Assembly (NCBI GenBank): GCA_030141605.1
Contig: JAQGDQ010000142.1
Span: 434,001-498,000 of the forward strand
Length of the DNA stretch: 64,000 nucleotides
Direction: 5' to 3'
Origin: Tubiluchus corallicola
Taxonomy: Eukaryota; Animalia; Priapulida
Position 1 is the stretch's first letter. Every line of letters starts with the position of its first letter. Below, piece after piece: positions 6,301 through 63,742 of the stretch. The notes under the pieces were generated by a model. The model did no database searches and was not told the DNA's origin. It worked only from the letters and a program-made list of their open reading frames with translations. Both the position numbers and the translations under genes were made by a program.

Positions 6301-8342
6301 AAGATTTCGGCATTTATTCTTTATCGCTATCTAGCCCATTAAGCTAATTATGGTTTAACATAAATCGAGTGGATTTATTGGTTCTGCTTTTTCTCGAGAC
6401 CCTCGAGTACTGCGAACTTTTGAGGGACCATGACGGTGATTTGAGGACTAGGAGTAGAACTTTACTAGTGCCATACTGTTCATGTTGCTTGAGTTTAACT
6501 TACACTTGGAATGTGATCTGTCTTCATGCGTTTATGCAAATCTTTCTAACCGAGATGATTTTTGCTATCGAGGTGTCAAAAGTAAGATTTGTAAAAGAAT
6601 CTCTACTATATCTCAAAAACGGTTTATTTTGTATTCTTCAAATGCTAAACAACATTGAAATTTTTGTGTAAGTATATAATTATATATTAGCATTAATTTT
6701 AATATATTCATTTTAAAGGTGCTTATCAAAGACCAAAGACATTGTTAAGCGAGATATCGGTCACATAAGCGCACTTGAATGCTGTGTAGCTATTCGCTTT
6801 TAATTCATGGCAGTTTGCTTTTCATAGTTAGTGTGCCCACTGTAGCTAAGGACTTAGTGAATTATGAAAAATAGATAACGTGTTAGTATTTAAAATAAAT
6901 TAAGCAGTTGGATTGTTTAGAATTTTGACCATTTAATATTCAAGATAAACTAAATATCTGCTCTTACTTTTATGATTTGCTATTTCTGTCATTGTCAACT
7001 TTAGCGGCTAAGTTTAGAAATTGTAATTCTCTCACATGTGTGCTATAAATTAAAATACTTTATTCAATTTTCATGCTAGATGAATTAATCACGAATTTTG
7101 GTGTAATTTCTATAGTGTAATTACTGTTGCATATACATATGTAACTTATATACTTGTGAGATTTGAACTGCTTGCTTAATTTGCTTATGCCATTAATCAT
7201 GTTTTATTGAATTGTTGAACTAAAATATCATTTTACTATATTTGCTGTCCCGTTAAATGCCTTCAATTACCTGGATGTAATTTAGTCCATTGATTCTCTG
7301 TAAAATGGACCTGCTGAGTTTAATATTAGCATTTTTAACAATATATTTCAGTTCACACTTTGTTGACTTTGTATTTCTCATGCAAACCCGCATATTGCCT
7401 AACAGATGATACAGTTTTCCCCAGGCCCTGCTCTTAACGTATACATATCTTCTGGTACATAAATGTGAAAAGATGAGCCTTTACTAGCAGGCGCCTATGA
7501 ACAACATATTTAAGGAGATAATACAGTTAAGAAGATCTGCTTCGGAAGGCATGTTACCTTGCTTTGGTATTGTCAATAAAGCTATTATTCTAGATTACAT
7601 TATTTGTTTTAGTCATTTCATATGTCAGTATTAGTAAGAATTTGTGCATATTTTGCTTTTTTATTTTTAAAATTAAACATTACGTGGCTGCTATTATTGC
7701 CATGTAGTAGGAAAATCGGGGTGCAAAATAGTTCCTTTTCCACTATTTGTTAGCACCCAGATATGGGATTTTTTCCTATTGATACTTTTCGTTAGCCGGA
7801 TGCACTTGAATATTAATTATTTTGAAATAGTTATTAATACGGTATGTTAATTATTAACAGAAATGAAGTTTTTTTGGTGTACTATGTTAACTGTTAATTG
7901 GTGGCTTGTGGAACTTTTGTTTTAACTGTTAATCAACTGTGACTGCAAATCTCTTTGTGAATCTCGATGTAGTTCTGATATTGTTGCGTTCTTCTAATTA
8001 GTATCAATGCCATTTGATTAATTCTAATTCTGTGTTTTGGCTAGTGCTTCCAAAGTTCTTGTGCAGAAATCTCAGCTGTAGCAATTGCATCGTTTGTATA
8101 AAGCTGTAATTTTTGTGCGTTGTGATCTTTTTCCGTCGCTGTTTGTTAAATTATTTTACATTGTATTATGTGTATGTCATTATTAAGTATGTCGTTGTTA
8201 TTATCGATATAAGAGGACATAATAAACATCTTTATCTTATAAATCTTATCTAATTTCTCAAGGTGAATGTTTGTTTTATACATGGTGCGTGTGTTTTATT
8301 AACAATAACTTTACAGGATAAACAGTTCCTCTGTTCCAGATC

Positions 8343-11300
8343 TCAAGACTTCCCTAGGTCTGAATTGGTTGGTTTTTCCCGGCATTCGTCTACGGAACTT
8401 GTGGATGGGTCCTGTCGCACACGTTTAACTTTTCTTGGTTCTAATTTTGTCTGTCTCATTGTTCCCTTGATCAGATGCCTGATGAACGCTGGTCGTTCTT
8501 GTTGGATTCGCCTTCGTGCTTCTAGCGTGATTTTCCGCACCTCATAGCTCAACAGCCGCTTCCGCTCCACCGGATCCAGCATCTGTCGCCTCTTGGCACT
8601 TGCTGCTATTGCTGACCTGCCACCAAAGGTCTCGCGGAGTCCCTGAAATGCAAAGGTTGTGCAAAAATAACACAATGTAATGCAACAAACTGTGGATTTC
8701 ATGGGTGGATGAAGCAGCTGACCCCAGAGACAAAATTTAAATCACCAACGGATATATCAGGCTAGTTGGAATTAGTGTGTGTTGAGTTAATAGATCAATA
8801 ACACTAGTATTCACATTTCAACACACACTAATTCCAACTTTACCTATTGTGTATGCACTACTGTGCAAATATAGAAAAATTGTCATTTTCAAACAAGTTA
8901 AGTAACAGTGAAAGAACCATTATGTATAGGGGTTTGACGCATTGCTGTTCTGTTACTGCTTATAGGACAAGAAAACGTTTTACTAACATAATGCTAAAAA
9001 ATTTGTCTTGAAATTTTGCATCACTTACATGCTGTCTTATTGCATACAGAGCTTGCGTTAAGAGTAATACTGTATAAAACTTGTAAATTTAAACTCTTGC
9101 AGTGACTATTAGGTGCAGTCATTTTTCATTTTAACAGTAGGTCATTTGAAACGAGTCTACGTAACAATGCTTAAAGCTTGAAAAAATAATCACAGCATTC
9201 GTGACACACATTTCACTAATTAAGGAAAAGTATAATTACTTTATCTTGTCAATAGTATTAATAATGTGTTTTTTATGAGTTGGTGCTTCCTGAGAAGGTG
9301 AGTCATTTTACCAGTTGGTGCCGACATTCTAAATAACTAAGAATTTTCTAGTTACACAAGTCTTTCAAGCAGGTAAGCATAATGCCAAGTCAATGAAGTA
9401 ATGTAACTTTGTTTGGAAAGTTTTTGTGATGCACTTTAAAATTGTCTTCTCTTCCTAATTTCATTTGCTGCTAACTTTCTTCCACGATGGCATTATAGTT
9501 TAAAAGAATTTAGGAAGAACTTACTTTCAGCTCGTTTTCAATCTCAATCGCAGCTTGATCGAGCAGGTAGTTCCAGGTATTCTGCTGCAATAAATTCACC
9601 ATAGATGATGAGCAGGACTTTGGTCTTATTTTAGAGGCAACACTTGACGTTTCTCGAACAGATACTTCCGAGCCGGAGTGGCTGCTTGCAAGCAAAACTG
9701 CAAAATCATTTTTTGATTATATAAGCAGAAAATGGGTCTTAAATTAGCCACTTTATCATATTTCGTTATCTAAGTAAGATGACCAATTTTATATATTTTG
9801 TGTTCAGTGCAGCTTTCAGATACAGATAACAGAAATAAAAATAACTGCCAGCACCCACTTAAGCAAAGAAGTGGCTTTTATTTAGACACAGCTTCTGCAA
9901 CGTTTCGACACGGTTAAGGTCATGTTCATGCAACAATTCACCTAAATGAAAATACGGTGTAAAAATGTACAAAAGTCAACATTGTGACAGACAAACATGA
10001 CAAATACTAAAAAGTAAATGTACATATCACGTGCTACAAAACCAAATGACAGAAAAATAAAGTTATGTTATTCCAGCACAATTCATTCTCTAACTAATGC
10101 CTGACACAATGTTGATCTTTGTACATTTTTTCCACTGTATTTTTATTTACGTGGATTGTTGCATGAACATGACCTTAACCGTGTTGAAACGTTGCAGACG
10201 TTTGTGTCTGAATAAAAACCATGTGTTTGCTTAAGTAGATGCTGGCTGTAATTTTTATTTTAAGAGTTCGTTTTCCTCATCATCAATCAGATAATAGATT
10301 TTCAACTTGCGGTAGCTTTTGCTGCAATCTTACCGCAATAAAAGCGAAAATTGCTCCTGTAAAGGTCAGTCTAATGCTTAATACTATAATGACATTAATA
10401 ACTGTCATTCTGACAAAGCGCCAAAATTATTTGCTTGAAATTCCACAAATGTGAGGCAACATTTTCTGTCCTCAAATATTGTTTGACACTAGGGAAGACA
10501 TTATGAATTACCATTAATCTGGGAAGTAATTTTGTTCAAAGCTGGTCCGGTGATTCCATACAAGCGAGACTTGGAGCTGATGCCATCAGAAGCCTTCAAA
10601 CACAAATCTATGACTCTGTTCTTCGCACTGCTGTAGAAAACAACGTGAATATTAAAACGTCATGCAAGTCTGCTGATGTGGAACACACAATATCCTATTC
10701 CAAACTTGCGTTTTGAGCCGTGCTTTAAATAGGTACCATGTCTTCCAAGTTAAAAGGTAGGACTGTTAATGGGATTGTTAATAGGTATGATGAATAAGAT
10801 GAATGATCATCATGAATATTTGCAGGAGACTCTGCAGTCTGAAGAATGCTTTATGTGTAAGAATCAAATATTTGCTTGATTACTATTACTGTCAGCTCTT
10901 ACTTTAAAACTGGCAGGCCTATAGTTTAATCTGTTTTATTTGGGAAGTCTCTGAAATCAAATGTGTTAATTGCTGTTCAGCAGACTTATTGCAGCACGAT
11001 TGCTATTTGTGCTAAGAATTTGCTGTAGGCAAGATTGCTATGCATGCAGAAAACTTATCATAGCAAGATCATTATTTGTGCTAGGAATTTGCCGTAGCAA
11101 GATTTCTTTTGTCGATTACAACTATCTCTAGGTGTCAGTAGGTATAAGTGTGTGGTCATTGTCAAGACTATTGTCCCCATTCGGATAGGTAAACTAATCA
11201 TCTTCATGTTCATAATCACCGTTTGCAGCTCATAAACTCTATTTCTCCACTTTCAAGTTCTTTGGCACAATCGAGCATCTCTTTTTTGTTTCTTTTGACA

Positions 11301-14300
11301 TCCACTCACCAGATGACTTATGAATATGTGACACGTCTGCAAGCGCAGGACACAGCTGCAAGATTGCTACTTATGCATTAAATTTTTAGCAAATTTTTAC
11401 CTATGGCATTTTGCTACAGCTGTTAGCATATCGGTGACTCTGGTAGGTGGTCGTGGTTTGCCATAAGAGCGTTGTTCGCAGGCGAATCCATGCTCAATCT
11501 CTTGCAAGGTTTCAGGATGGCGGATCATTACTGTGGAACGAGCCTTTTGAACTGCAAGTGAGGAAATCTGATATTAAAAATGAATGATTTTCAAATGGAG
11601 TAAGAACTGCAGGCATTGCTGTTGCTAGATGATGGTGTAACTAGAGCAGCTGGTGCCAGGTTCAGATGCTTACCTGTCGTAACAGAGCTGGTGTCACTGG
11701 ATGATGGCTTAACTAGAGTAGCTGCTGTTAGGTTTAAATACTTACTTGTCATAACAGAGCTATTGTTGCTGGATGACGGAGTAACTAGAGTGGCTGATGC
11801 CAGGTTTAGATGCCTACCTGTAGTGTTGGTGTCAGTGGATGATGGTGTAACTAGAGTGGCTGATGCCAGGTTTAGCTGCCTACCTGTAGTGTTGGTGTCA
11901 CTGGATGATGGTGTAACTAGAGTGGCTGATGCCAGGTTTAGCTGCCTACCTGTAGTGTTGGTGTCACTGGATGATGGTGTAACTAGAGTTGCTGATGCCA
12001 GGTTTAGCTGCCTACCTGTAGTGCTGGTGTCACTGGATGATGGTGTAACTAGAGTGTCTGATGCCAGGTTTAGGTGCCTACCTGTAGTGTTGGCGTCACT
12101 GGATGATGGCGTAACTAGAGTGGCTGATGCCAGTTTTAAATGCCTACCTGTAGTGTTGGTGTCACTGAATGATGGTGTAACTAGAGCGGCTGATGCCAGG
12201 TTTAGCTGCCTACCTGTAGTGTTGGTGTCACTGGATGATGGTGTAACTAGAGTGGCTGATGCCAGGTTTAAATGCCTACCTGTAGTGTTGGTGTCACTGG
12301 ATGATGGTGTAACTAGAGCGGCTGATGCCAGGTTTAGCTGCCTACCTGTAGTGCTGGTGTCACTGGATGATAGTGTAACTAGAGTGTCTGATGCCAGGTT
12401 TAGCTGCCTACCTGTAGTGCTGGTGTCACTGGATGATGGTGTAACTAGAGCGGCTGATGCCAGGTTTAGTTGCCTACCTGTAGTGTTGGTGTCACTGGAT
12501 GATGGCGTAACTAGAGTGGCTGATGCCAGGTTTAGGTGCCTACCTGTAGTGCTGGTGTCACTGGATGATGGTGTAACTAGAGTGGCTGATGCCAGGTTTA
12601 AATGCCTACGTGTAGTGCTGGTGTCACTGGATGATGGAGTAACCAGAGTGTCTGATGCCAGGTTTAGCTGCCTACCTGTAGTGCTGGTGTCACTGGATGA
12701 TGGTGTAACTAGAGTGTCTGATGCCAGGTTTAAATGCCTACCTGTAGTGTTGGTGTCACTGGATGATGGTGTAACTAGAGTGTCTGATGCCAGGTTTAAA
12801 TGCCTACCTGTAGTGCTGGTGTCACTGGATGATGGTGTAACTAGAGTGGCTGATGCCAGGTTTGATGGCTTGTTCAACCAGTTGGAAGTCTTGATGTCTT
12901 TTATTCGGATTCTAACTGCAGGGTCACGACAGAGCATCTTGTGAACTAAAGTACGACAGTCTGGAAAAACAAAATTCAGCAACATCATTGCCAAATGTAG
13001 CATAGCTACATAATTCGAAATTCGTTTTTCAAAAAAAGGTCAAGAATGTAGTGTATGATAGCCTCGTTTGAGTAGCTGTGCCATAAATAATTATATTACT
13101 GTTATTATCTATATGGGCAACATATGGAATACTGGCACTGCAATAGAGAATACAGTATATATTGTAAACTAGGCTGAGATCCGCAACTCACTGGAAGACG
13201 TTATTATTTTGATGATTGTAACGGGACTGCCTAGACCGGTATCTATTTTACTACTGTCATCTTTTTTGTATAAGATTTGTTACTGTAGCGACTATCATGC
13301 AAACTTGGTCTGCTAAAATAGTATAAACTGACTTCTCATACAAAAATTTAATGTAGATGATGTACTGCATGACAATTTTAATATAAAAAAGCTTTAAAAA
13401 GTTGTTTAGATAAAAGCAGTTCCTGGCGAAACAGGCAATTTTTGGTGTCTCTACCTGTGAGCAAACGTCATGTGAATCACTGTGCACCGATGGTCAATAC
13501 TGCGTGAACACTGCACAAAGTGCTTCAATGTATTTGTTCAATAATTAGATAAGATGCTTGCCTTTTGTAAGTTCTTTTGTGAATTTCACAGGTTCCTTCA
13601 TTGATTCGCGCAGAATATCGCTGGATTGATCTTGAAATGGTAATTTTCCACACAACATTCCATACAGACACACTCCTAAATTAGAAAGAAACTGTAGAAA
13701 TAACGGCATGGTATGATATGTAGGAAACTTACGTTAGAGCCGTGTCTGTATGCTGTGCAGGGGCGTAGCTAGGTTGTAAAGTTAGAGGAGCAAGCACATA
13801 GAAGGCGCCATGACACATACCAAGCAATTTTTAACGCACTGATTATGCATTTTAGTTTTGAATTTAAAATCAAATCAAGGGCAAAATACCGTTTTAAAGG
13901 AAGTACATAATTGCCATTTTGTATTATTTTAAAATTAAAACGCAAAAAATTGCAGTAGGCTCATCAATCTCAAAACAATGAAAATATGTTATATTATTTA
14001 TTTATTTTAATTTTAAATGTAAAATGAAAACAAAACGAAGCCTATATTATGAAAAATGTATCCCGAAGGCACTACAACAGTGTCTTTCGTCCAGGGCTTC
14101 ATTCTAGCAAAGTCAGATAACTTTATTACAATTCCTTTCAGTAGCCAACTCTCTTTCAATGGAGAGCAAACCTAACCCAGGTAATTTATCCTCGTCCACG
14201 GCAGAACGAAGGTAGGACATTATCTGTTTCAGCCGACTAAAGGATTGTTCAGCTACAGCGCTAGGTGTTGGTACAATGTGGACAGGGTAGCATAAATGGA

Positions 14301-16906
14301 ACACATGTCACTGACAATCGTGAATTTAAATACATTGTTGATGGTCAGTTTCTCAACACTTGAATTTGACGCTCATTTCAAAAACATGGGAGGGATGTTG
14401 TTCAAATAAATAAAGTAATGGCTCCAGAAAATTCTTCCAGTGCTGTGCGATTTAAAAAACCAAACAAAAAAGATCCGACTTTTATCGCACAAGTGAACTA
14501 CAGAGTTAAAAAATTTGTTATAAAGGCGCCAATTTTGAAAAAATCTGCTCAGGGGTAACTGTTGCTCCCCTATTAGCTTACGCCAATGGCGCTGTGTACA
14601 AGTGATCTTGCTAACTACAAGATAATATTACAAACGACTGCTACATTCAATCTATTCGGAGAAAGAAATACTTCTGTAGTTGGCACGGAAAGAACTTTTC
14701 ACGTTCCGGTATGAAAAACAGCAATTCGTTCAAAATCGACATTAACAACCAGCGACAGGGATTTGTATCTTCACATATCAAACTTTTTGACAGTTGGATC
14801 AGAATTTAGCGAAAGTTTATACTGGGACAAAATTTCATAATATTGCAGTAAAAAAGTAAGACAGCTTTCACAACTAATGGAAATACTAACACAACTGCTT
14901 TTGAATTTACTATTCTCAAATAGCAATTCATAAAAGATCATATTTTTTTAACCGAAAACGCTCCTCGCTTTGACATTTAGTGGCTTTGTATGATAACAAT
15001 GTTTGTAATTAATCATGTCAATTAGTTAGTATATGCATTTCCATAAGTTATTATGGGAAGATCTTGGGTAGATACGCAGGGGAAAGAGTTAAGAGTTACA
15101 TCATTATTTAACCTCAGAGAAGCGTTCCATTGGTCTTTGACGAGAATGATGTCGTAGAAGTTAAACTGTATTTTTCTCAAGAAACGTGGACTTAAATTTT
15201 ACCAAACCAACTAACTAATGGGTTTACCCATGCTCCATACATCAGCTAGTTCGCCCGAATACTCTGTTTCCTCTAACACTTCTGGACAACCGTACACGTA
15301 TGAGCCACACCGGGTATTGAGTAAGTCCGAGTCAGTCTTCTTGCACGCAAAGCCAAAGTCTAAGCAAAAATAAAACATGTTTAAATTATTACTCATCATC
15401 ATCATCAAGAGCCTATTGCACCTGTTGTAGGATAGTCAGAGCTCTAAAATGAAAGAAATCTGCTCTCAAGGCAGTAAAATACAACAGTACTTCAGCGAAA
15501 AACTAGACAATACTGCTATCCCAGTAGCGTGTCAGACCACTTCCGGCGCTACTGTTAAACTATAATAATAGTGTATTAGCATTCTGTACTGTTTCTAACT
15601 AAATTAATTAGCAGATCGATTTCGGCGATTTTTCAATAACATACAGACAATGAAACTTTTTAAAACAGTTTTTCTGGTGAACTTGCATTTACTGTTAAAG
15701 AAACGTAGTTTTTCAACTACAAATTTCCACAAGAAAATGTAAGCGAACTCACCACAAAGCTTGAGTGTATTATTGGTGTGATCTAGCAAGATATTCTCCA
15801 GTTTAATGTCTCTGTGATACACACCCTGCTCGTGTAAGTAATTAACCACCTATCAAGGGACGCACAATAACGCAATTAATTCAAAAATACATGAACCCAA
15901 ATCGTATGCACACGAATCCTGACCAGTTAGTCTCTGCCATAAAATGTTGACCTTGACCTCTGGCCTTTAGTCTGTCATGCAGTGCAGAATTTGACCTCAG
16001 ACATTTAGTCAGTCAAGTGTTCATTCAAGTCACGTTGGTAAAACGTTTTCTTGGCTTGATATTTGTAACTCCAGCTTCAGTGACGTTTCATTTTGTAGTG
16101 ACCTTGACCTCTGCTTTTTATCTTCTTATTCGTGCACACTTGGAGAAGAACAGAAGGACTGGTGAAACGCTTTAATTAAGATTTTGTAACATTAGTTCAG
16201 GTGTCTCAGGAATTTTAGACAGACGGACGAACAAACAAAACTGAAAATTGTGATTACAGAGCTCCCATAAGAGACCTTAATAGGAACACCCTCGTTAAGT
16301 CTATTGAAATTATTCATTTTTAAATACAGACGAACAGATAGACAAAGAGAGAGAGAGATAAAGAAAGAATGGGCAAGAAATGGGGAGAGAAACGAGGGAA
16401 AGAGGGAGAGGTTTTATAAATATATACTATATACATTCTTACTTCTAATAGCTGTCTAAACATCCGCAATGCATCGATCTCCTCCAGAGGTCCATGCTCC
16501 TCAATTCGTGTGAGAAGATCACCATTTGCAACATACTCCATGATAATGTAGATGGCAGCATGTGTCTCAAACGCCTCGTAAATTTCTACCTGGGAGAAAG
16601 AACAGATTTAAGTTTTCGTACTTAAATTACTTCTCGCACTCAGGTGGCTTACGAGTTGTGCGTAGCAGTTATTGATTTTTAGTTGGTCATTATTTCAAGT
16701 ACAAACCCCACGAAAGTTACCTAACGCAATAAACCCCTATACTTACGACTCTAGGATGCCGAAGATTGTTTAAAATGTTAATTTCTCTCGTTACAAATTT
16801 CTTGATGATGGCTTTCGGTAAGCGTCGCTTGAAGATTATTTTGACTGCAACCTAAGAGAAAAAACAGGCTTCATCGTGCTATATAATAATATGTAATAAT
16901 AAAAGC

Positions 16907-17001
<95 letters not shown>

Positions 17002-17212
17002 TTACAACCCTGTTTTGACTTACTTCTTTATTCATTTTAACACTGTGAGCAATTTTAATTTTTGAGTAGCTGCTCTCTCCAATGGTTTTCCCCAGCTTGT
17101 ATCCATATCGTTCTAACACGTTGCGTTTCTTCTTATCAGGATGCCAGCTTTCTTCATGGTACACCAAAGCCAGGGTACCATCATCCACTAGCTTTACACA
17201 CGAATCGATCAT
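8343..17212 (-). CDS. TSSK: Testis-specific Ser/Thr kinase-like (TSSK/CAMK group) gene, 11 exons, with repeat linker and long C-terminal tail
   Basis: Exons 17024-17212, 16747-16851, 16443-16589, 15753-15849, 15228-15359, 13562-13675 (GC donor), 12960 down to a donor between 12808 and 11674, 11401-11551, 10512-10630, 9525-9697 and 8343-8642. All phases match. Motifs: LERYGYKLGKTIGESSYSKIK, VAVKII, KKFVTREI, HRDIKLENILL, DFGFA, TRCGSYVYGCPE, ADVWSMGVCLYGMLCGKLPF, DPAVRI. Confidence 0.85.
8764..8839. repeat. Perfect 22-bp inverted repeat (hairpin) in the last kinase intron
   Basis: agttggaattagtgtgtgttga (8764-8785) / tcaacacacactaattccaact (8818-8839), with a 32-nt spacer. Confidence 0.85.
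9838..10256. mobile_element. About 155-bp inverted duplication, Penelope-like terminal repeat
   Basis: About 9838-9995 is the diverged reverse complement of about 10095-10256. Each arm contains TGAACATGAC-N9-GT(C/T)GAAACGTTGCA, resembling the PLE hammerhead-type motif. Confidence 0.55.
10990..11105. repeat. Degenerate ~35-bp minisatellite (3-4 units)
   Basis: gcaagattgctatttgtgctaagaatttgctgta-like units repeated. Confidence 0.55.
11620..12863 (-). repeat. 66-bp tandem array (16 x 66 bp + 2 x 72 bp + partial) encoding LNLASATLVTPSSSDTxTTGRx, each unit containing a 5' splice donor
   Basis: Directly visible repeat. On the minus strand each unit reads ...ACTACAG|GTAGGC... The ORF stays open through the whole array. 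Confidence 0.95.
13758..14588 (-). mobile_element. hAT transposon deletion derivative with transposase C-terminal remnant
   Basis: TIR CAGGGGCGTAGC / GCTTACGCCAATG. The 8-bp flanks atgctgtg / gcgctgtg resemble a TSD. ORF 14113-14304 (PSAVAEQSFSRLKQIMSYLRS..LGLLSIERE) resembles the hAT dimerisation domain. A related element lies at 45260-45605. Confidence 0.8.
16907..16998. repeat. (CT)n microsatellite
   Basis: About 45 CT units in kinase intron 1. Confidence 0.95.
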
Positions 17213-27085: not shown

Positions 27086-31183
<4,098 letters not shown>

Positions 31184-32658: not shown

Positions 32659-33580
32659 TGATATCTTGATGTCTACTGTTTAGGGGATAAATTGTGTCAT
32701 CTAAAACATTGAGGTTGAGACTGTTAGTATTTAAAGTGTTATTGCTGAATTTGTTATTGTATCAGAGAATGAAATTATCCAACTATGCCTGACACGCAAC
32801 CAACATTAGTAAGTGGTCATCCAATGTAGATAGACACACGTGTTATGGTTGTCTAGCTGTCTGGAGCTGTGGATGCGCATTCCACTCATTTGACAAACTT
32901 TCCGAGGCTCTCAGATAAACTGTTTTGTAGTTTAAAACAATTGCCATAATCCGCCTGGTCACTTCACTTGCAAGTCGAAAATAATTCAATGAAGGTCAAC
33001 ACACCTTCATATAATGACGAAACTTGCTTTTTACTGACTAAAAACGCATAAAAAAGCCGCAAAGCCGGTTGTAAAAAAACAATGCATTTTTTTACTTCAC
33101 AGCCGAAAAGCCAACTTTTCCGTTGGTACTATTCAGAATTAAGCTACGACTATACTTCTTGTTGTTGCTTATTCCTGGTCAAGATATTTGAATATTTCCG
33201 GGAAGCATAAAACTTCAACTTTTGTAGGGTAATAATTTTGTAATTCGGCACCGCACTTTCTAACACCGGCCCTGAAAAAGGTTAACTTTTTACGTTGACT
33301 AACTGCAGTCTACTGTTCTTCGACTGCACTTATTTGTTGAGAAACGTTTTTGCTAACTATGCATGTTTGATCGCTTGGTGGAATGTGAGCCAATTCTGCC
33401 TGTCCAAGCGTAACTTAGCTAGATATGCCTAAAGCATTCCTCAATATAGTACACTGAACTTATAATACAATGCTTAAGTTGTGTCAGTAGCTCTTGTGGG
33501 TGATTTTGATTGTAGCGTCTGTTACTTTTGTGCCGTTGAGACCGTCTACTGCTGCTGTAAAAGCCCTAAAAGTGTAAACT

Positions 33581-35008
33581 ATGGAACTTGAAGCATCTGA
33601 TATGCAAACGACTGTGGCACCTAGTGGCCGCAATGGCAAATTGTGGAAGAAAAAACTGAAAGTGCTGAAGGACATTATATTAATCAGTGTTGCTTTTATG
33701 GTACTTTTCACGGCATTTCAATCTGTGCAGAACTTGCAGAGCAGCTTAAACCGAGACGAGGGATTAGGAGTGGCTTCGCTAAGTATCATATATGCCTCCC
33801 TGGTTCTCTCGTGCCTGTTCCTGCCTAATTTTGTCATCGATAGACTGGGTTGCAAGTGGACAATAGTCATTGCTATGTTGGTGTATGGATTGTACATGTT
33901 AGCAAACTTTTATGCATCATGGTATACTCTGGTTCCTGGTGCTATACTATTAGGCGCAGCAGGTGCCCCCTTGTGGTCTGCCAAATGTACCTATCTTACA
34001 GAAATCTCCCCGGAATATGCAAATTTAGAGGGGGTAACTACAGAAACAATTGTCAATCGATTTTTCGGCATTTTCTTCCTATTCTTCCAGAGTGGACAAA
34101 TTTGGGGAAACCTAATTTCCTCCTCTATATTTAAAGTTACGGCACCTAACGATACCATACCTGTGGAGGTAGCAATGTCTTACTGTGGAGCAGCGTTTGA
34201 TAGTTCTACTAGTGAGGGCAGCCTCAGCGATTTCAAAAACATTACAAACCCAAACTTGAAAAGACCACCTAACTCTCGGGTCATGCTTTTAATGGGAATT
34301 TATTTTGGCTGTGCAGTGGTGGCAGCTTTTATAGTAGGTGTCGGCGTTAACCCTTTGAAAAAGGACATGGGTAAAAACATAAAACGTGGAATAGATTTCA
34401 GTCTGTTCATTGCAACAGTCAAGCATTTAAAACATGTGGATCAGTTACTTCTTATACCTTTGACAATATACAGCGGTGTAGAACAAGCATTTATAGCTGG
34501 AGATTATACACTAGCATTTGTTTCGTGTAGCTTGGGTGTCCACATGGTGGGTTATGTGATGATTACTTTTGGAGTCACCGATGCTGCCGGGTCGTTTCTG
34601 TCAGGTCGGTTAGTGCAGTATGTCACTCGAATTCCCATTTTTACATTCGCATTCCTAGTTCATTCGGCAACAGCATTCGTTCTTTTATACTGGCGACCAG
34701 ATCCAAGCAAAATTGTCGTTTTCTTCATCCTGGCAGCTTGCTGGGGTCTCAGTGATGCAGTGTGGCAAACCCAGATCAATTCCTTGTATGGTGTTTTGTT
34801 TGGCCACAGTGCCACAGCAGCATTTGCAAACTACAGACTTTGGGAAAGTCTTGGCTTTGTGGCTGCATATGCTTACAGTAAATTCTTAAGTACCAAGGTG
34901 AAACTGTGGATTGTGATTGGCAACTTACTAGCAGGAGCTGTAGGCTATACTGTTGTAGAAATTAGATATTATGTAACTAAACAGAGAGACACTTATGAAC
35001 TGAAGTGA
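33581..35008 (+). CDS. UNC93A: UNC-93-like MFS membrane protein (UNC93A), intronless CDS, 475 aa
   Basis: FMVLFTAFQSVQNLQSSLN..GLG..SLS.IY, LGCKWT, APLWSAKCTYLT, FFGIFFLFFQSGQIWGNLISS, LLIPLTIYSGVEQAF, WGLSDAVWQTQINSLYG and AAFANYRLWESLGF. Confidence 0.95.
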   Translation: MELEASDMQTTVAPSGRNGKLWKKKLKVLKDIILISVAFMVLFTAFQSVQNLQSSLNRDEGLGVASLSIIYASLVLSCLFLPNFVIDRLGCKWTIVIAMLVYGLYMLANFYASWYTLVPGAILLGAAGAPLWSAKCTYLTEISPEYANLEGVTTETIVNRFFGIFFLFFQSGQIWGNLISSSIFKVTAPNDTIPVEVAMSYCGAAFDSSTSEGSLSDFKNITNPNLKRPPNSRVMLLMGIYFGCAVVAAFIVGVGVNPLKKDMGKNIKRGIDFSLFIATVKHLKHVDQLLLIPLTIYSGVEQAFIAGDYTLAFVSCSLGVHMVGYVMITFGVTDAAGSFLSGRLVQYVTRIPIFTFAFLVHSATAFVLLYWRPDPSKIVVFFILAACWGLSDAVWQTQINSLYGVLFGHSATAAFANYRLWESLGFVAAYAYSKFLSTKVKLWIVIGNLLAGAVGYTVVEIRYYVTKQRDTYELK

Positions 35009-38682: not shown

Positions 38683-39301
38683 GGTAAAAGCATAAAACGT
38701 GGAATAGCTTTCACTCTGTTTATTGCAACAGTCAAGCATCTAAGACATGTGGATCAGTTACTTCTTATACCATTGACAATATACAGTGGTATAGAGCAAG
38801 CATTTGTGGCTGGAGATTATACATTAGCATTTGTTTCGTGTAGCCTGGGCCTTCACATGGTGGGTTATGTAATGATTACTTTTGGAGTCACCGATGCCAC
38901 TGGATCATATCTATCAGGTCGGTTGGTGCAATATGTCACAAGAGTTCCCGTCTTCATTTTTGGATTCCTCATTCACTTGGCGACAGCGTTCTCTCTCTTA
39001 TACTGGCGACCAGATCCAAACAAAATCGTCGTCTTCTTCGTTCTTGCAGCTCAATTCTTTGTATGGTGTTCTATTTGGTCACAGTGCGACAGCAGCATTT
39101 GCAAACTACAGACTTTGGGAAAGTCTTGGATTTGTGGCATCATATGCTTATAGTACGTTATTGTGCACTAGAACTAAACTGTGGATTGTGATTTGCAACT
39201 TACTGACAGGAGCTGTTGGTTACACCATTGTTGAGATCAGATATTACGTGTTAAGAAGTTCTTGCAGAGTGACAACTGCACTTTCTGGCCTATCACAGTA
39301 G
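38682..39301 (+). pseudogene. UNC93A: Truncated, frameshifted UNC93A duplicate (3' part only)
   Basis: Aligns to about 34369-34975 with many third-position changes. A 38-nt deletion near 39051 removes CWGLSDAVWQTQI and shifts the frame. The 5' part is missing. Confidence 0.9.
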
Positions 39302-39409
39302 TGTAATTTTGCACCTTCTGACTCACGTAGTACTGTTATTTCATAGCTTCCGGCCGATGCAGTTGTGTGATTCCTTAGCTTCTGGCCACTTCTGCAGAAG
39401 TGTGTTTAC

Positions 39410-39612
39410 GTAGCTCCTAGCTCACTGCAGTAGTGTGGTTCTGCAACTCGTAGATTTCTGCAGTAGTGTGGTTCTGTAGCTCCTCGTTCACTGCAGTAGT
39501 GTGGTTCTGTAGCTCCTCGTTCACTGCAGTAGTGTGGTTCAGTAGCTAGTAGTTTTCTGCAGTAGTGTGGTTCTGTAGCTCCTCGTTCACTGCAGTAGTG
39601 TGGTTCTGTAGC
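39410..39612. repeat. 33-bp minisatellite (about 6 units)
   Basis: ctgcagtagtgtggttctgtagctcctcgttca repeated. Degenerate units extend to about 39330. Confidence 0.9.
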
Positions 39613-61198: not shown

Positions 61199-63742
61199 TT
61201 AAACTGCAGTAGCATTACCCTGTTCTATTGCTGCTAACAAATTGGTTTTGAGTCGTACAAAAAGCCTTCCTTTAGTCCAGGGATTCTGCAACTGCAGCGG
61301 TTGGTAGTCATCCCGTAGGCAGCGCTCTCGACTACCGATCACGGCCACCAGGCAGAAATCGTTGAGCTGTTCATCTGTGTAGTTAGGCGCTCCGGGACCC
61401 TTTGCCTGTGCTGCTTTGTTTAACTGTTGTACAACTAGATTTATGACTTCGCGGGAAGTCGTGCGCGGCGTCACGTGTAACTTCACGCTTGCTCCTTTAG
61501 CCAGGCCCGTATCGTAGGCAGCAAATATTCGCAGGATACCGGATGGTTTTGTGTCGGTATCTAGTAAGCTGATCTGCGGGATTATAGCATCATAAATTTC
61601 TGGTGCTGCAAGTAAGAAAAACAAAGAGTTAAAACAGTAAACTAGAGATAATGGAAAACTTCGTTTCATTGTATGCTATGTATTAAACAATTAATATTTT
61701 TAAATGTAAATTACAGCAAGTCCTCGCTTAACGATGCTAATGCATTCCAGAAAATGGGACGTTAAGCGAAACGTTGTTAAACGAAGCCAAGACTTTCATA
61801 GAAAGTAACGTAAAAGAACTGAGATACGTTTCAGAGACAGAAATCAATACTGCTTAAATCATACAAGTTAAACATTCTATGAGTTTTATAGAATGTCTTT
61901 CTGCTTGCCTGACACCACCTATATATTTTGCTTACTAATACCTAGCCATAGCAGTTTCTCTTTCATTAACATTTAATCCTAGTCAGCAGTTAACAGTAAA
62001 CACTGCAGAGTCAAAACCAAGCCCAGGGGCAACCTTGGGTATTTTGCCTACATACTTAGTCTAGTTGCTATACCACCAGGTTGGAGGCAAAATTCCTTGC
62101 ATACCGGTTAACAGTAAACAATGCAGAGTCAAAACCAAGCCCAGGAGCAACCTTGGGAATTTTGCCTACATACTTAGTCTAGTTGCTATACCAACAGGTT
62201 GGAGGCAAAATTCCTTGCATAAGTTTTCTCGCTGATCACTTGTTAGTTGATGCAAACCGCTAGCAGTAGTAGTAGCGTCAGTAGTCAGCCAGAAAGCAAA
62301 ACCATGTATAATTGCACTGTTTACATTACTAGCGCATCTTTAGAACAGAATAATTAGATAAAAATTTTGTTGATCAAATCGTAGTTAAAATGAAACGTCG
62401 TTAAACAGGAGCTGTTAAGCGAGGACTTACTGTACACACCTTTGCATTATGAATAAGATTGTTCTCTTACTATCGAAGGCCCAAATTTTGAAAAGCATAA
62501 GTTTTCACATACTCACAAACATGCCAGTGATATATTTTCATTTTTCATCATATATTTTGCATCATATATATTCATAGGACGTGATAACAATATGGGGGAT
62601 ATTACGTGTTTAAATATAAACGCTGATAAGAATATGACCAGGGCCCGGCATGTCGTTGGATTCGCAGGAAAATTTGCAAAAGAAACTTGCATTTGTGTAG
62701 AAAAAGTTCTAAAAGTTCATGAAGGAGTATAAGGTTGTACAAAAGTGATAATCTTGTAAAATTTTATGAAACATTTTTCGAAAGTTCTGCAAATTCATGA
62801 ACCTACCAGAATCATCAACTGGCGTCAGCGATAGTTGACTCGCACTAGAAGTAGGCGTAATCATGATGCGGTGATCCGACAGGGGGCTATCTTCAGGCGA
62901 GGGAGGCGGAGCATACAATACCCCCAGTGGTATACCACCCTTTAACTAGAAAAAAATTCTTTTAAAACGTATTCTGTAATGTAGTTATTTTACAATGTGA
63001 AGTGCTATTATCATTATTTTTACTTACAAGAAAGCTGCAATCTTTTAAGTACTTACTCTAAATGAAGGCTTATATAATATATAGTTAAAATTATAGTGCC
63101 TTAAAAAATTAAAATTGTCAAAATTGAAGTTCTCTGGTAAACATGGGTAATTAAGGAGATGACAATTAACATTTTAATGAGCCCATTAATTGAAGCAGCT
63201 TAAAAATGAGCCGATTCAAGCTGAAACTAGTTTTACTTATTTCTTATAAACAATTTTTATTCATAAAACCTTGCAACCAGAAATACTTTTTGTCACTAAC
63301 TAAAACGATATCAAAATTAGTTTTAAATGTTTTGAGTATCTAAACAATGAAACTTTTACACTAAAAATCATATACAAGTTATCACATCATAATGACTGAA
63401 AGAAGTTATTTCACGAAACCGATCCCTTGTAAACGTGTCAAGATTAAAAAGAACTGATTAGATTTGTTATAAAAAATCTTCATAAAGATGCTCATTTTAA
63501 CTTAAGTCAGCAATGAAGTCTATTTGGTCATTACGTTTCCAACACTAGTAAGTTCTAATAATTTGTGAGTTAATTACAGGTGATACAGGTAGAAATAGTT
63601 CGTTAACCTGTTTGTCACGAGCGTAGATTAGCGCGTCCATTATCCAACGTCTTCGCTTCCACGTATCATCTAGAAGAACCTGAAAGTCTAACAGCTGAGC
63701 GAGTTTTTCTCTTGCTGTTGCTAATTCTGCTGGTGAGAATGC
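61199..63742 (-). CDS. ANKFN1: ANKFN1 / wide awake (banderuola) homologue, last three exons including the Ras-association domain; 5' part outside window
   Basis: Exons 63608-63742 (AFSPAELATAREK...WKRRRWIMDALIYARDKQ), 62807-62945 and 61199-61605 (GILRIFAAYDTGLAKGASVKLHVTPRTTSREV...FCLVAVIGSRERCLRDDYQPLQLQNPWTKGRLFVR). Phases match. Confidence 0.9.
61714..62432. mobile_element. Tigger/pogo-like MITE, copy 3, with internal ~118-bp tandem duplication
   Basis: TA|CAGCAAGTCCTCGCTTAAC...GTTAAGCGAGGACTTACTG|TA. 61989-62103 is nearly identical to 62107-62221. Confidence 0.8.

What the first reader, a model, noticed from the sequence alone, without database searches (positions are those of the whole stretch)
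11552..12960. Tandem splice-donor ladder: 18 in-phase 5' splice sites in a coding repeat of a TSSK-like kinase
Seen: the 66-bp unit is an amplified exon/intron junction. On the minus strand a candidate donor follows exonic positions 12808, 12742, ... every 66 nt to 11818 (CAG|GTAGGC in 15 units, CAC|GTAGGC at 12610), then 11746 (CAA|GTAAGT) and 11674 (CAG|GTAAGC). All 18 are phase 1. This matches the next acceptor (cttgcag|TT CAA AAG at 11551), which opens four more in-frame exons ending at 8343. The array has no stops or frameshifts (units are 66 or 72 bp). The same AG|GTAGGC donor is needed by my PTB gene model in this window (2992/2993). Inference: donor choice could yield up to 18 isoforms (about 559 to 937 aa) differing in 22-aa steps of a Ser/Thr/Pro-rich linker between the kinase domain and the tail. 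A read-through form (about 717 aa, stop at 11591) would lack the tail. This would be a splicing-set ruler or phosphosite dial, on top of VNTR allelic variation. The ORF track wrongly shows this as a terminal exon.
Basis: partly seen in the sequence, partly recalled or inferred. Interest (0 to 1): 0.85.

Follow-up and report, generated by a model that had tools for sequence, protein, structure and literature searches.

The report
Splice donor copied eighteen times, kinase
An animal protein-kinase gene carries 18 head-to-tail, same-frame copies of what is likely an exon end plus its splice signal, a repeat type already known from human and lancelet genes; the cell likely uses mainly one copy (probably the first), so the proposed 18-step series of protein lengths is possible on paper but unshown.

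Summary
There are 18 donor-like sites at the stated positions, all phase 1, in a stop-free array, and the 559/937/717-aa lengths are correct. Sixteen of the 18 pair with U1 better than the gene's 9 other donors. All four tail exons score as coding in the required frame, so one array donor is probably real.

The '18 in-phase, stop-free' pattern is mostly one event: any donor inside a 3n-long unit repeats in phase, and 7 of 9 other donors here would also give a stop-free unit. Neither coding selection nor donor conservation is significant. A low-depth DNA contig shows a frameshifting 14-nt deletion between donors 17 and 18. Donor use could not be tested with RNA.

This is a boundary-spanning minisatellite like human F7, IFI6 and CBS and the lancelet 'mirages'; in the five human cases only the first one to three donors are used. 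The scan noted this kind before in other genomes. My odds: first donor dominant 0.45, last 0.27, broad ladder 0.15, read-through 0.08.

The parts
17024..17212 (-). Kinase exon 1 (ATG 17212; subdomain I, Gly-loop reads GESSYS)
   Evidence: start codon inferred
16747..16851 (-). Kinase exon 2 (VAVK Lys, alpha-C Glu)
   Evidence: Pfam Pkinase 27-60, weak, E 0.016
16443..16589 (-). Kinase exon 3
   Evidence: Pfam Pkinase 61-109, E 3.8e-07
15753..15849 (-). Kinase exon 4 (HRDIKLEN)
   Evidence: Pfam Pkinase 111-140, E 6.1e-10
15228..15359 (-). Kinase exon 5 (DFG, T-loop Thr, CPE)
   Evidence: Pfam E 3.5e-07; best PDB hits BRSK2, SIK3, SNF1/AMPK
13562..13675 (-). Kinase exon 6, ending in a GC donor (AAG|GCAAGC), phase 1
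   Evidence: no Pfam hit on its own
12808..12960 (-). Shortest form of exon 7 (153 nt): kinase end plus the first 56-nt exonic copy of the unit, ending at donor 1
11818..12807 (-). Fifteen homogenised 66-nt units, each ending at a donor-like site (14 CAG|GTAGGC, 1 CAC|GTAGGC)
   Evidence: 61-66 of 66 identical to consensus
11674..11817 (-). Two diverged 72-nt units ending at CAA|GTAAGT (11746) and CAG|GTAAGC (11674, best U1 pairing)
11591..11673 (-). Decayed partial unit after the last donor, open to TGA 11593-11591 (read-through stop)
11401..11551 (-). Tail exon 8; acceptor at 11551 needs a phase-1 donor
10512..10630 (-). Tail exon 9
9525..9697 (-). Tail exon 10
8343..8642 (-). Terminal coding exon 11 (99 aa, TGA)
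   Evidence: no homologue found
8295..8300 (-). AATAAA 43 nt after the tail stop, candidate poly(A) signal
10935..10940 (-). First AATAAA after the read-through stop, possible poly(A) signal of a tail-less form
   Evidence: use untested

Best explanation
The array is 18 same-phase copies of a donor-like site in a stop-free 66/72-nt repeat, likely made by tandem duplication of the last ~56 nt of kinase exon 7 with the first ~10 nt of its intron, and the spliceosome likely joins mainly the first donor (12808) to the acceptor at 11551, which would give a ~559-aa kinase-plus-tail protein and leave most of the array intronic. Some leak to the next one or two donors is likely, as in IFI6 and CBS. 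Because the unit is 66 nt and exon-derived, such leak only adds 22-aa Ser/Thr-rich units and is tolerated, which would explain why the array could grow without a regulatory role. Shown: the array, donor motifs, phases, open frames and diverged 3' edge. Inferred: the junction origin, linkage of the tail exons, and which donor dominates.
For: Junction origin: the first copy matches the unit at 54 of 56 exonic positions and 3 of 10 donor positions; unit GC 0.49 against 0.33-0.41 in 9 introns; donors this strong are rare (0.8% per 66 nt; 0 in 4,714 nt of ORFs). Tail is coding: 4 of 4 tail exons score best in the modelled frame, as do 7 of 7 kinase exons; AATAAA follows the last stop. First-donor use: PMC1557585 (abstract, introduction, discussion read) reports that F7, lamin B2 (100-bp unit) and PDGF (81-bp unit) use only the first donor, and IFI6 and CBS the first plus two more. 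Lancelet mirages do not disturb regular splicing (PMC3087553 section 16). Donor 1 gives a 153-nt exon, within the 97-189 nt range of the other non-terminal coding exons, against 1,287 nt for donor 18. No significant coding selection: core 6 synonymous of 17 variants against 0.29-0.33 expected. One genomic contig (151 nt, depth 3.9) has a net 14-nt deletion at 11702-11717 that would put a stop before donor 18.
Against: In HeLa assays two strong donors 45 nt or more apart splice almost wholly at the one nearest the acceptor (PMC3413131, passages). These donors are strong and 66 nt apart, and the last pairs best with U1 (-11.0 against -10.7). The period and the only indel in the reference array (6 nt) are multiples of three. 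The edge units show 11 synonymous of 23 changes (p 0.04-0.13 depending on transition bias; some counted changes are core polymorphisms). The frameshift contig is a single low-depth record and may be an error. The human precedents were found as intronic repeats, which biases them towards first-donor use. A decayed unit follows the last donor, which the simple duplication model does not predict.
Confidence: 0.45

Rival explanations
1. Same origin, but the last donor (11674, perhaps 11746) dominates. The array is then a coding VNTR inside a 1.2-1.3 kb internal exon, giving a 913-937-aa protein with a ~380-aa Ser/Thr-rich linker whose length varies by allele, not by splicing.
For: Intron-proximal rule for strong sites 45 nt or more apart (PMC3413131). 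Last donor has the best U1 pairing and leaves a 122-nt intron. 11746 lacks -1G but has a perfect GTAAGTAT. Period 66 and the 6-nt indel keep frame. Weak synonymous excess at the edge. An unchecked scan note (e1-9353532) reports last-donor use in a similar array.
Against: Five of five human natural arrays use upstream donors. The 14-nt deletion contig would be a null allele under this model. Synonymous excess is not significant at the observed transition bias (23 of 35 variants are transitions).
Confidence: 0.27
2. One reading: four or more donors are each used substantially, giving isoforms that differ in 22-aa steps and are perhaps tuned by tissue or stage.
For: Sixteen of 18 donors pair with U1 better than all 9 other donors of the gene. 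All 18 products are open. The two published rules pull towards opposite ends, so mixed use is possible. IFI6 makes three mRNAs from repeat donors (PMC4526556 passage).
Against: No cited natural array uses more than three donors. Donor columns are not more conserved than the rest of the unit: 4 of 35 variant alleles fall in the 10 columns around the junction, and an invariant GT has chance probability 0.34. One donor has lost -1G. A stop-free frame is expected anyway (7 of 9 controls; p 0.48).
Confidence: 0.15
3. The main product reads through all donors to TGA 11591 (717 aa, no tail) and is polyadenylated near 10940; the tail form is minor or belongs to another transcript.
For: The frame stays open to a stop right after the last partial unit, and GC falls from about 0.5 to 0.3 near 11607. 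An AATAAA lies at 10940.
Against: It requires ignoring 16 strong donors. The tail exons score as coding and have no other phase-1 donor except skipping exon 7, which would cut the kinase domain. U1 sites normally suppress nearby polyadenylation (recalled, not from a call).
Confidence: 0.08
4. Each CAG|GT serves as both acceptor and donor, so the array is removed as a new intron from the first GT to a later AG (Rogers-type intron gain) or by recursive splicing.
For: Every unit has AG|GT. Intron gain from mirages was proposed in PMC3087553.
Against: The 15 nt before these AGs hold 2 T (11817) and 4 T (11673), against 5-11 T at the 10 modelled acceptors, and are A/C-rich.
Confidence: 0.05

Closest known systems
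Human minisatellites whose first unit spans an exon-intron boundary: F7 IVS7 (37 bp), IFI6/6-16, CBS IVS13, lamin B2 (100 bp), PDGF (81 bp); PMC1557585 abstract, introduction and discussion read; PMC4526556 passages
   Same: A real donor is reiterated in every unit, and many identical functional-looking donors face one acceptor. IFI6 and CBS use two extra donors, and IFI6 makes three mRNAs.
   Different: Here the unit is mostly exon (about 56 of 66 nt; F7 has 4 of 37). All 18 products are in frame with 22-aa steps, the donors pair strongly with U1, the last is the strongest, and it is close to the acceptor (122 nt). Donor use here is untested.
Lancelet 'mirage' minisatellites (Adh3, troponin C, globins BflGb6/9, PGBD5); PMC3087553 section 16 read, PMC3902484 passage
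   Same: Tandem duplication of an exon-intron boundary in an invertebrate, with a homogenised core and diverged edge units.
   Different: Mirages are reported not to alter splicing, and the passages read describe no in-frame isoform series. Here only the 3' edge is diverged and the array is wholly in frame.
Multi-exon, long-tailed Tssk5-type kinases of bivalves (scallop Tssk5: 12 exons, 731 aa; oyster TSSK-like genes with 8-11 coding exons, 529-574 aa); PMC8042308 and PMC6905558 passages
   Same: CAMK/AMPK-related kinase followed by a long multi-exon tail (11 exons, 559 aa or more here). The Gly-loop is degenerate here, and scallop Tssk5 seems to lack the ATP-binding pattern.
   Different: No sequence homologue or tree could be obtained, so orthology is not shown. 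The passages read mention no repeat linker.

Membership tests
Exon-intron boundary minisatellite (F7-type / mirage) | Tandem array whose first unit spans an exon end and its donor | tested here: met
   First copy shares 54 of 56 exonic and 3 of 10 donor-side positions; coding tail needs a phase-1 donor from the array. By sequence only, no cDNA.
Exon-intron boundary minisatellite (F7-type / mirage) | Splice signal repeated in most units | tested here: met
   18 GT sites in register, 16 with U1 pairing of -10.7 or stronger
Exon-intron boundary minisatellite (F7-type / mirage) | Homogenised core with diverged edge units | tested here: met
   Core 61-66 of 66; three 3' units 48-52 of 60; 5' edge not diverged
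Exon-intron boundary minisatellite (F7-type / mirage) | Allelic variation in unit number | tested here: inconclusive
   Only two short contigs of one genomic run touch the array; one has a 14-nt deletion; unit number cannot be read
Exon-intron boundary minisatellite (F7-type / mirage) | Splicing mostly from the first one to three donors | not testable with these tools
   Needs transcripts from this species
TSSK kinases | Ser/Thr kinase domain of the CAMK/AMPK-related branch with catalytic Lys, HRD, DFG | tested here: met
   Pfam Pkinase in 4 of the 5 kinase exons scanned (exon 1 alone had no hit); best PDB hits BRSK2, SIK3, SNF1; motifs located
TSSK kinases | T-loop threonine | tested here: met
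   Thr195 aligns with the Thr of BRSK2 TSCGS; feature from PMC7401350 passages. It is shared by all AMPK-related kinases.
TSSK kinases | Placement in the TSSK clade by phylogeny | not testable with these tools
TSSK kinases | Testis-restricted, post-meiotic expression | not testable with these tools
   Needs tissue RNA
Recursive-splice or Rogers-type AG|GT array | Polypyrimidine tract before the internal AG | tested here: not met
   2 and 4 T in 15 nt at the two sites listed, against 5-11 at 10 modelled acceptors

The most novel reading that the evidence does not exclude
The array is a working splice ruler: many of the 18 in-phase donors are used, in tissue- or stage-dependent proportions, so one kinase gene makes a series of proteins whose Ser/Thr-rich linker grows in 22-aa steps from about 22 to about 400 residues. 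That would exceed the three donors used in the natural cases I read about.
Probability: 0.15. Interest if true: 0.75.

Novelty: new member of a known kind. Interest (0 to 1): 0.35.

Why it matters
Repeated-donor minisatellites are known, so the arrangement itself is not new. This one is an unusually clean natural test of how the spliceosome picks among identical strong donors. The F7 scanning model predicts the first donor (153-nt exon). The double-occupancy model for strong sites 45 nt or more apart predicts the last (122-nt intron). Because all 18 products are in frame, decay of faulty mRNA should not hide any of them, so one RT-PCR or long-read run would show the choice directly. If many donors are used it would be a stepwise length dial on a kinase linker; if the last dominates it shows how a duplicated splice junction becomes a coding protein repeat.

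Tried and rejected
RNA: no RNA holder listed. Run X2 (RNA is a guess) had no contig on 10450-13690 and only short partial matches elsewhere. Run X1 covers introns, so it is genomic. None of this bears on expression. No whole genome is held.

Homologues: none found for the tail exon, the start of exon 7 or exon 1 (one search gave only unnamed or generic kinase clusters). These are weak negatives for short queries. Ancestral exon structure therefore could not be compared.

Folded repeat: AlphaFold2 gave a confident beta-solenoid for the array exon (pLDDT 79.5, pTM 0.76; solenoid matches, none with E <= 0.001). The antisense reading frame of the same repeat folded just as confidently (80.4, 0.76), and this bias is published (PMC11795689, abstract), so the model was rejected as uninformative. 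Pfam hits of the array (PF10370, PF12496) look like repeat artefacts.

Other ideas: a GT in the 19th register (11607) is probably chance, as the flanks match the unit at only 1 of 6 and 4 of 20 positions. Local RNA folding leaves the donors 0.18-0.44 unpaired and favours none. Kinase target motifs RxxS/T and LxRxxS are absent from the linker (0 hits; 41% Ser+Thr, 15 TP), so a phosphosite dial has no specific support. The unit does not occur elsewhere in the window, and the scan has no look-alike window. MaxEntScan was not available; U1 pairing energy was used instead.

Literature: searches returned no paper, and the listings showed none describing a ladder of more than three used donors. The library lacks most subscription papers; the primary IFI6 and CBS papers were not read, and no supplements were read.

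Full report
Observation. The minus strand carries a 66-bp tandem repeat (16.6 copies, 94% matches). Listing the donor-like GT sites between 12960 and 11552 gives sites after 12808, 12742 and so on every 66 nt to 11818 (15 CAG|GTAGGC, one CAC|GTAGGC at 12610), then CAA|GTAAGT at 11746 and CAG|GTAAGC at 11674. All are phase 1. With six upstream kinase exons and four downstream exons, all 18 joins to 11551 are stop-free (559 to 937 aa), and read-through ends at 11591 (717 aa). One addition: the DNA after the last donor is itself a decayed unit (49 of 60 identical to the unit).

What is and is not surprising. The donor is unlikely to be chance. By duplex energy with the U1 5' end (motif recalled), 16 of the 18 sites score -10.7 or -11.0, stronger than all 9 other donors of this gene (-4.5 to -9.2). 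Sites that strong occur at 0.8% per 66 nt elsewhere in the window and not at all in 4,714 nt of long ORFs. The count of 18 and the shared phase are one event, because any site in a unit whose length is a multiple of three repeats in phase. Lack of stops is also expected: 7 of the 9 other donors of this gene would give a stop-free unit if duplicated the same way, and 35 variant alleles avoid a stop with probability 0.48. What remains is that the period and the single 6-nt indel are multiples of three.

The gene. Exons 2-5 match Pfam Pkinase in order. Exon 5 is closest to BRSK2, SIK3 and SNF1/AMPK among solved structures, with the T-loop Thr aligned. The catalytic Lys, HRD and DFG are present; the Gly-loop reads GESSYS. 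TSSK membership could not be tested because no relatives were retrieved. The layout resembles bivalve Tssk5-type genes with 8-12 exons and long tails (PMC8042308, PMC6905558, passages).

The tail has no detectable homologue, so I tested it by composition. A codon-position model trained on four unrelated ORFs of the window scores 4 of 4 tail exons best in the modelled frame (0.028-0.077 per nt), like 7 of 7 kinase exons. The intron null reached 0.006 at its 99th percentile, but it was drawn from the training introns and so is biased low. Tail exons are 44-51% GC against 33-41% in introns, and AATAAA follows the last stop by 43 nt. The acceptor at 11551 needs a phase-1 donor, and the array is the only source that keeps the kinase whole. 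So some array donor is very probably used.

Origin (inferred). The copy before donor 1 matches the unit at 54 of 56 positions and at only 3 of the 10 positions that carry the donor. The unit is 49% GC. This fits duplication of about 56 nt of exon end with about 10 nt of intron start. The core units are 61-66 of 66 identical to their consensus, while the three 3' units are 48-52 of 60: recent homogenisation with an old edge, as described for lancelet mirages. The decayed unit after the last donor needs an extra loss or decay step.

Is the array under coding or splicing selection? Not detectably. The core has 6 synonymous of 17 variant alleles, against 0.29-0.33 expected, and the antisense frame gives the same 6 of 17. 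The edge units give 11 of 23 (p 0.04-0.13; with the core 0.05-0.18). Since 23 of 35 variants are transitions, the higher p values apply, and some edge counts include core polymorphisms. Four of 35 variants fall in the ten columns around the junction, about what chance gives. A genomic run, X1, holds 96 nt of the core unchanged and one 151-nt contig (depth 3.9) with a net 14-nt deletion at 11702-11717 and a change at 11740. If real, that allele stops at 11696, before donor 18, which harms last-donor and read-through forms but not upstream donors. It is one low-depth record, may be an error, and X1 may be the sample behind the assembly.

Which donor is used? This could not be tested here, so it rests on published rules, which disagree. 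PMC1557585 (abstract, introduction, discussion) shows that human F7 uses only the most upstream of its identical donors. It lists lamin B2 (100-bp unit) and PDGF (81-bp unit) as first-only, and IFI6 and CBS as first plus two; IFI6 yields three mRNAs (PMC4526556 passage). Lancelet mirages do not disturb regular splicing. Against this, PMC3413131 (passages) reports nearly complete use of the donor nearest the acceptor when two strong sites are 45 nt or more apart. That describes these donors, and the last one pairs best with U1 and leaves a 122-nt intron. Both rules predict one end of the ladder. I put first-donor dominance with leak at 0.45, last-donor dominance at 0.27, a broad ladder at 0.15, read-through at 0.08 and internal AG use at 0.05. 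The margin between the first two is small.

The linker. The repeat is 41% Ser+Thr with 15 TP dipeptides and no RxxS/T motifs. AlphaFold2 folds it as a confident beta-solenoid, but folds the antisense frame equally well, a published artefact (PMC11795689 abstract). A flexible linker is my inference from composition; a rigid ruler is not supported.

Novelty. This is a new member of a described kind. Earlier scan notes report the same kind in at least five other findings from other genomes (unchecked AI notes). They led me to the F7 and mirage papers, which I then read. Other notes guess a priapulid-like host; I did not test that. What sets this case apart is that every product is in frame and the two models of donor choice predict opposite ends, so a single transcript experiment would be decisive. 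Interest 0.35; the ladder reading would merit about 0.75 if shown.

Noticed in passing
window 13561-12961 (-): Intron 6 of the kinase is GC-AG (AAG|GCAAGC), directly upstream of the array exon; its phase-1 donor could also join 11551 and skip exon 7 in frame, cutting the kinase domain.
   Followed up: partly
window 17024-17212 (-): The kinase Gly-loop reads GESSYS, with Ser at the second Gly position; the other catalytic motifs are intact.
   Followed up: no
window 33578-35008 and 38683-39301 (+): An intronless UNC-93-like gene and a partial second copy (residues 258-461, 78-83% identical) split over two frames near 39050-39090, probably a broken duplicate.
   Followed up: partly
window 39392-39612: A 33-bp tandem repeat (6.7 copies, with a 99-bp higher period) just after the second UNC-93 copy; open on the minus strand.
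   Followed up: no
   Followed up: partly
window 28889-30163 (-), 30791-31183 (+), 61199-61675 (-): A long sulfotransferase ORF, a MAPEG exon and a Ras-association domain exon.
   Followed up: no
window 8990-9400, 9830-10300, 13700-14600: Kinase introns carry dispersed repeats with very high depth in the genomic run.
   Followed up: no
window 11604-12944 (+): The antisense strand of the array is also open for 446 codons; treated as a by-product of the repeat and used as a folding control.
   Followed up: yes
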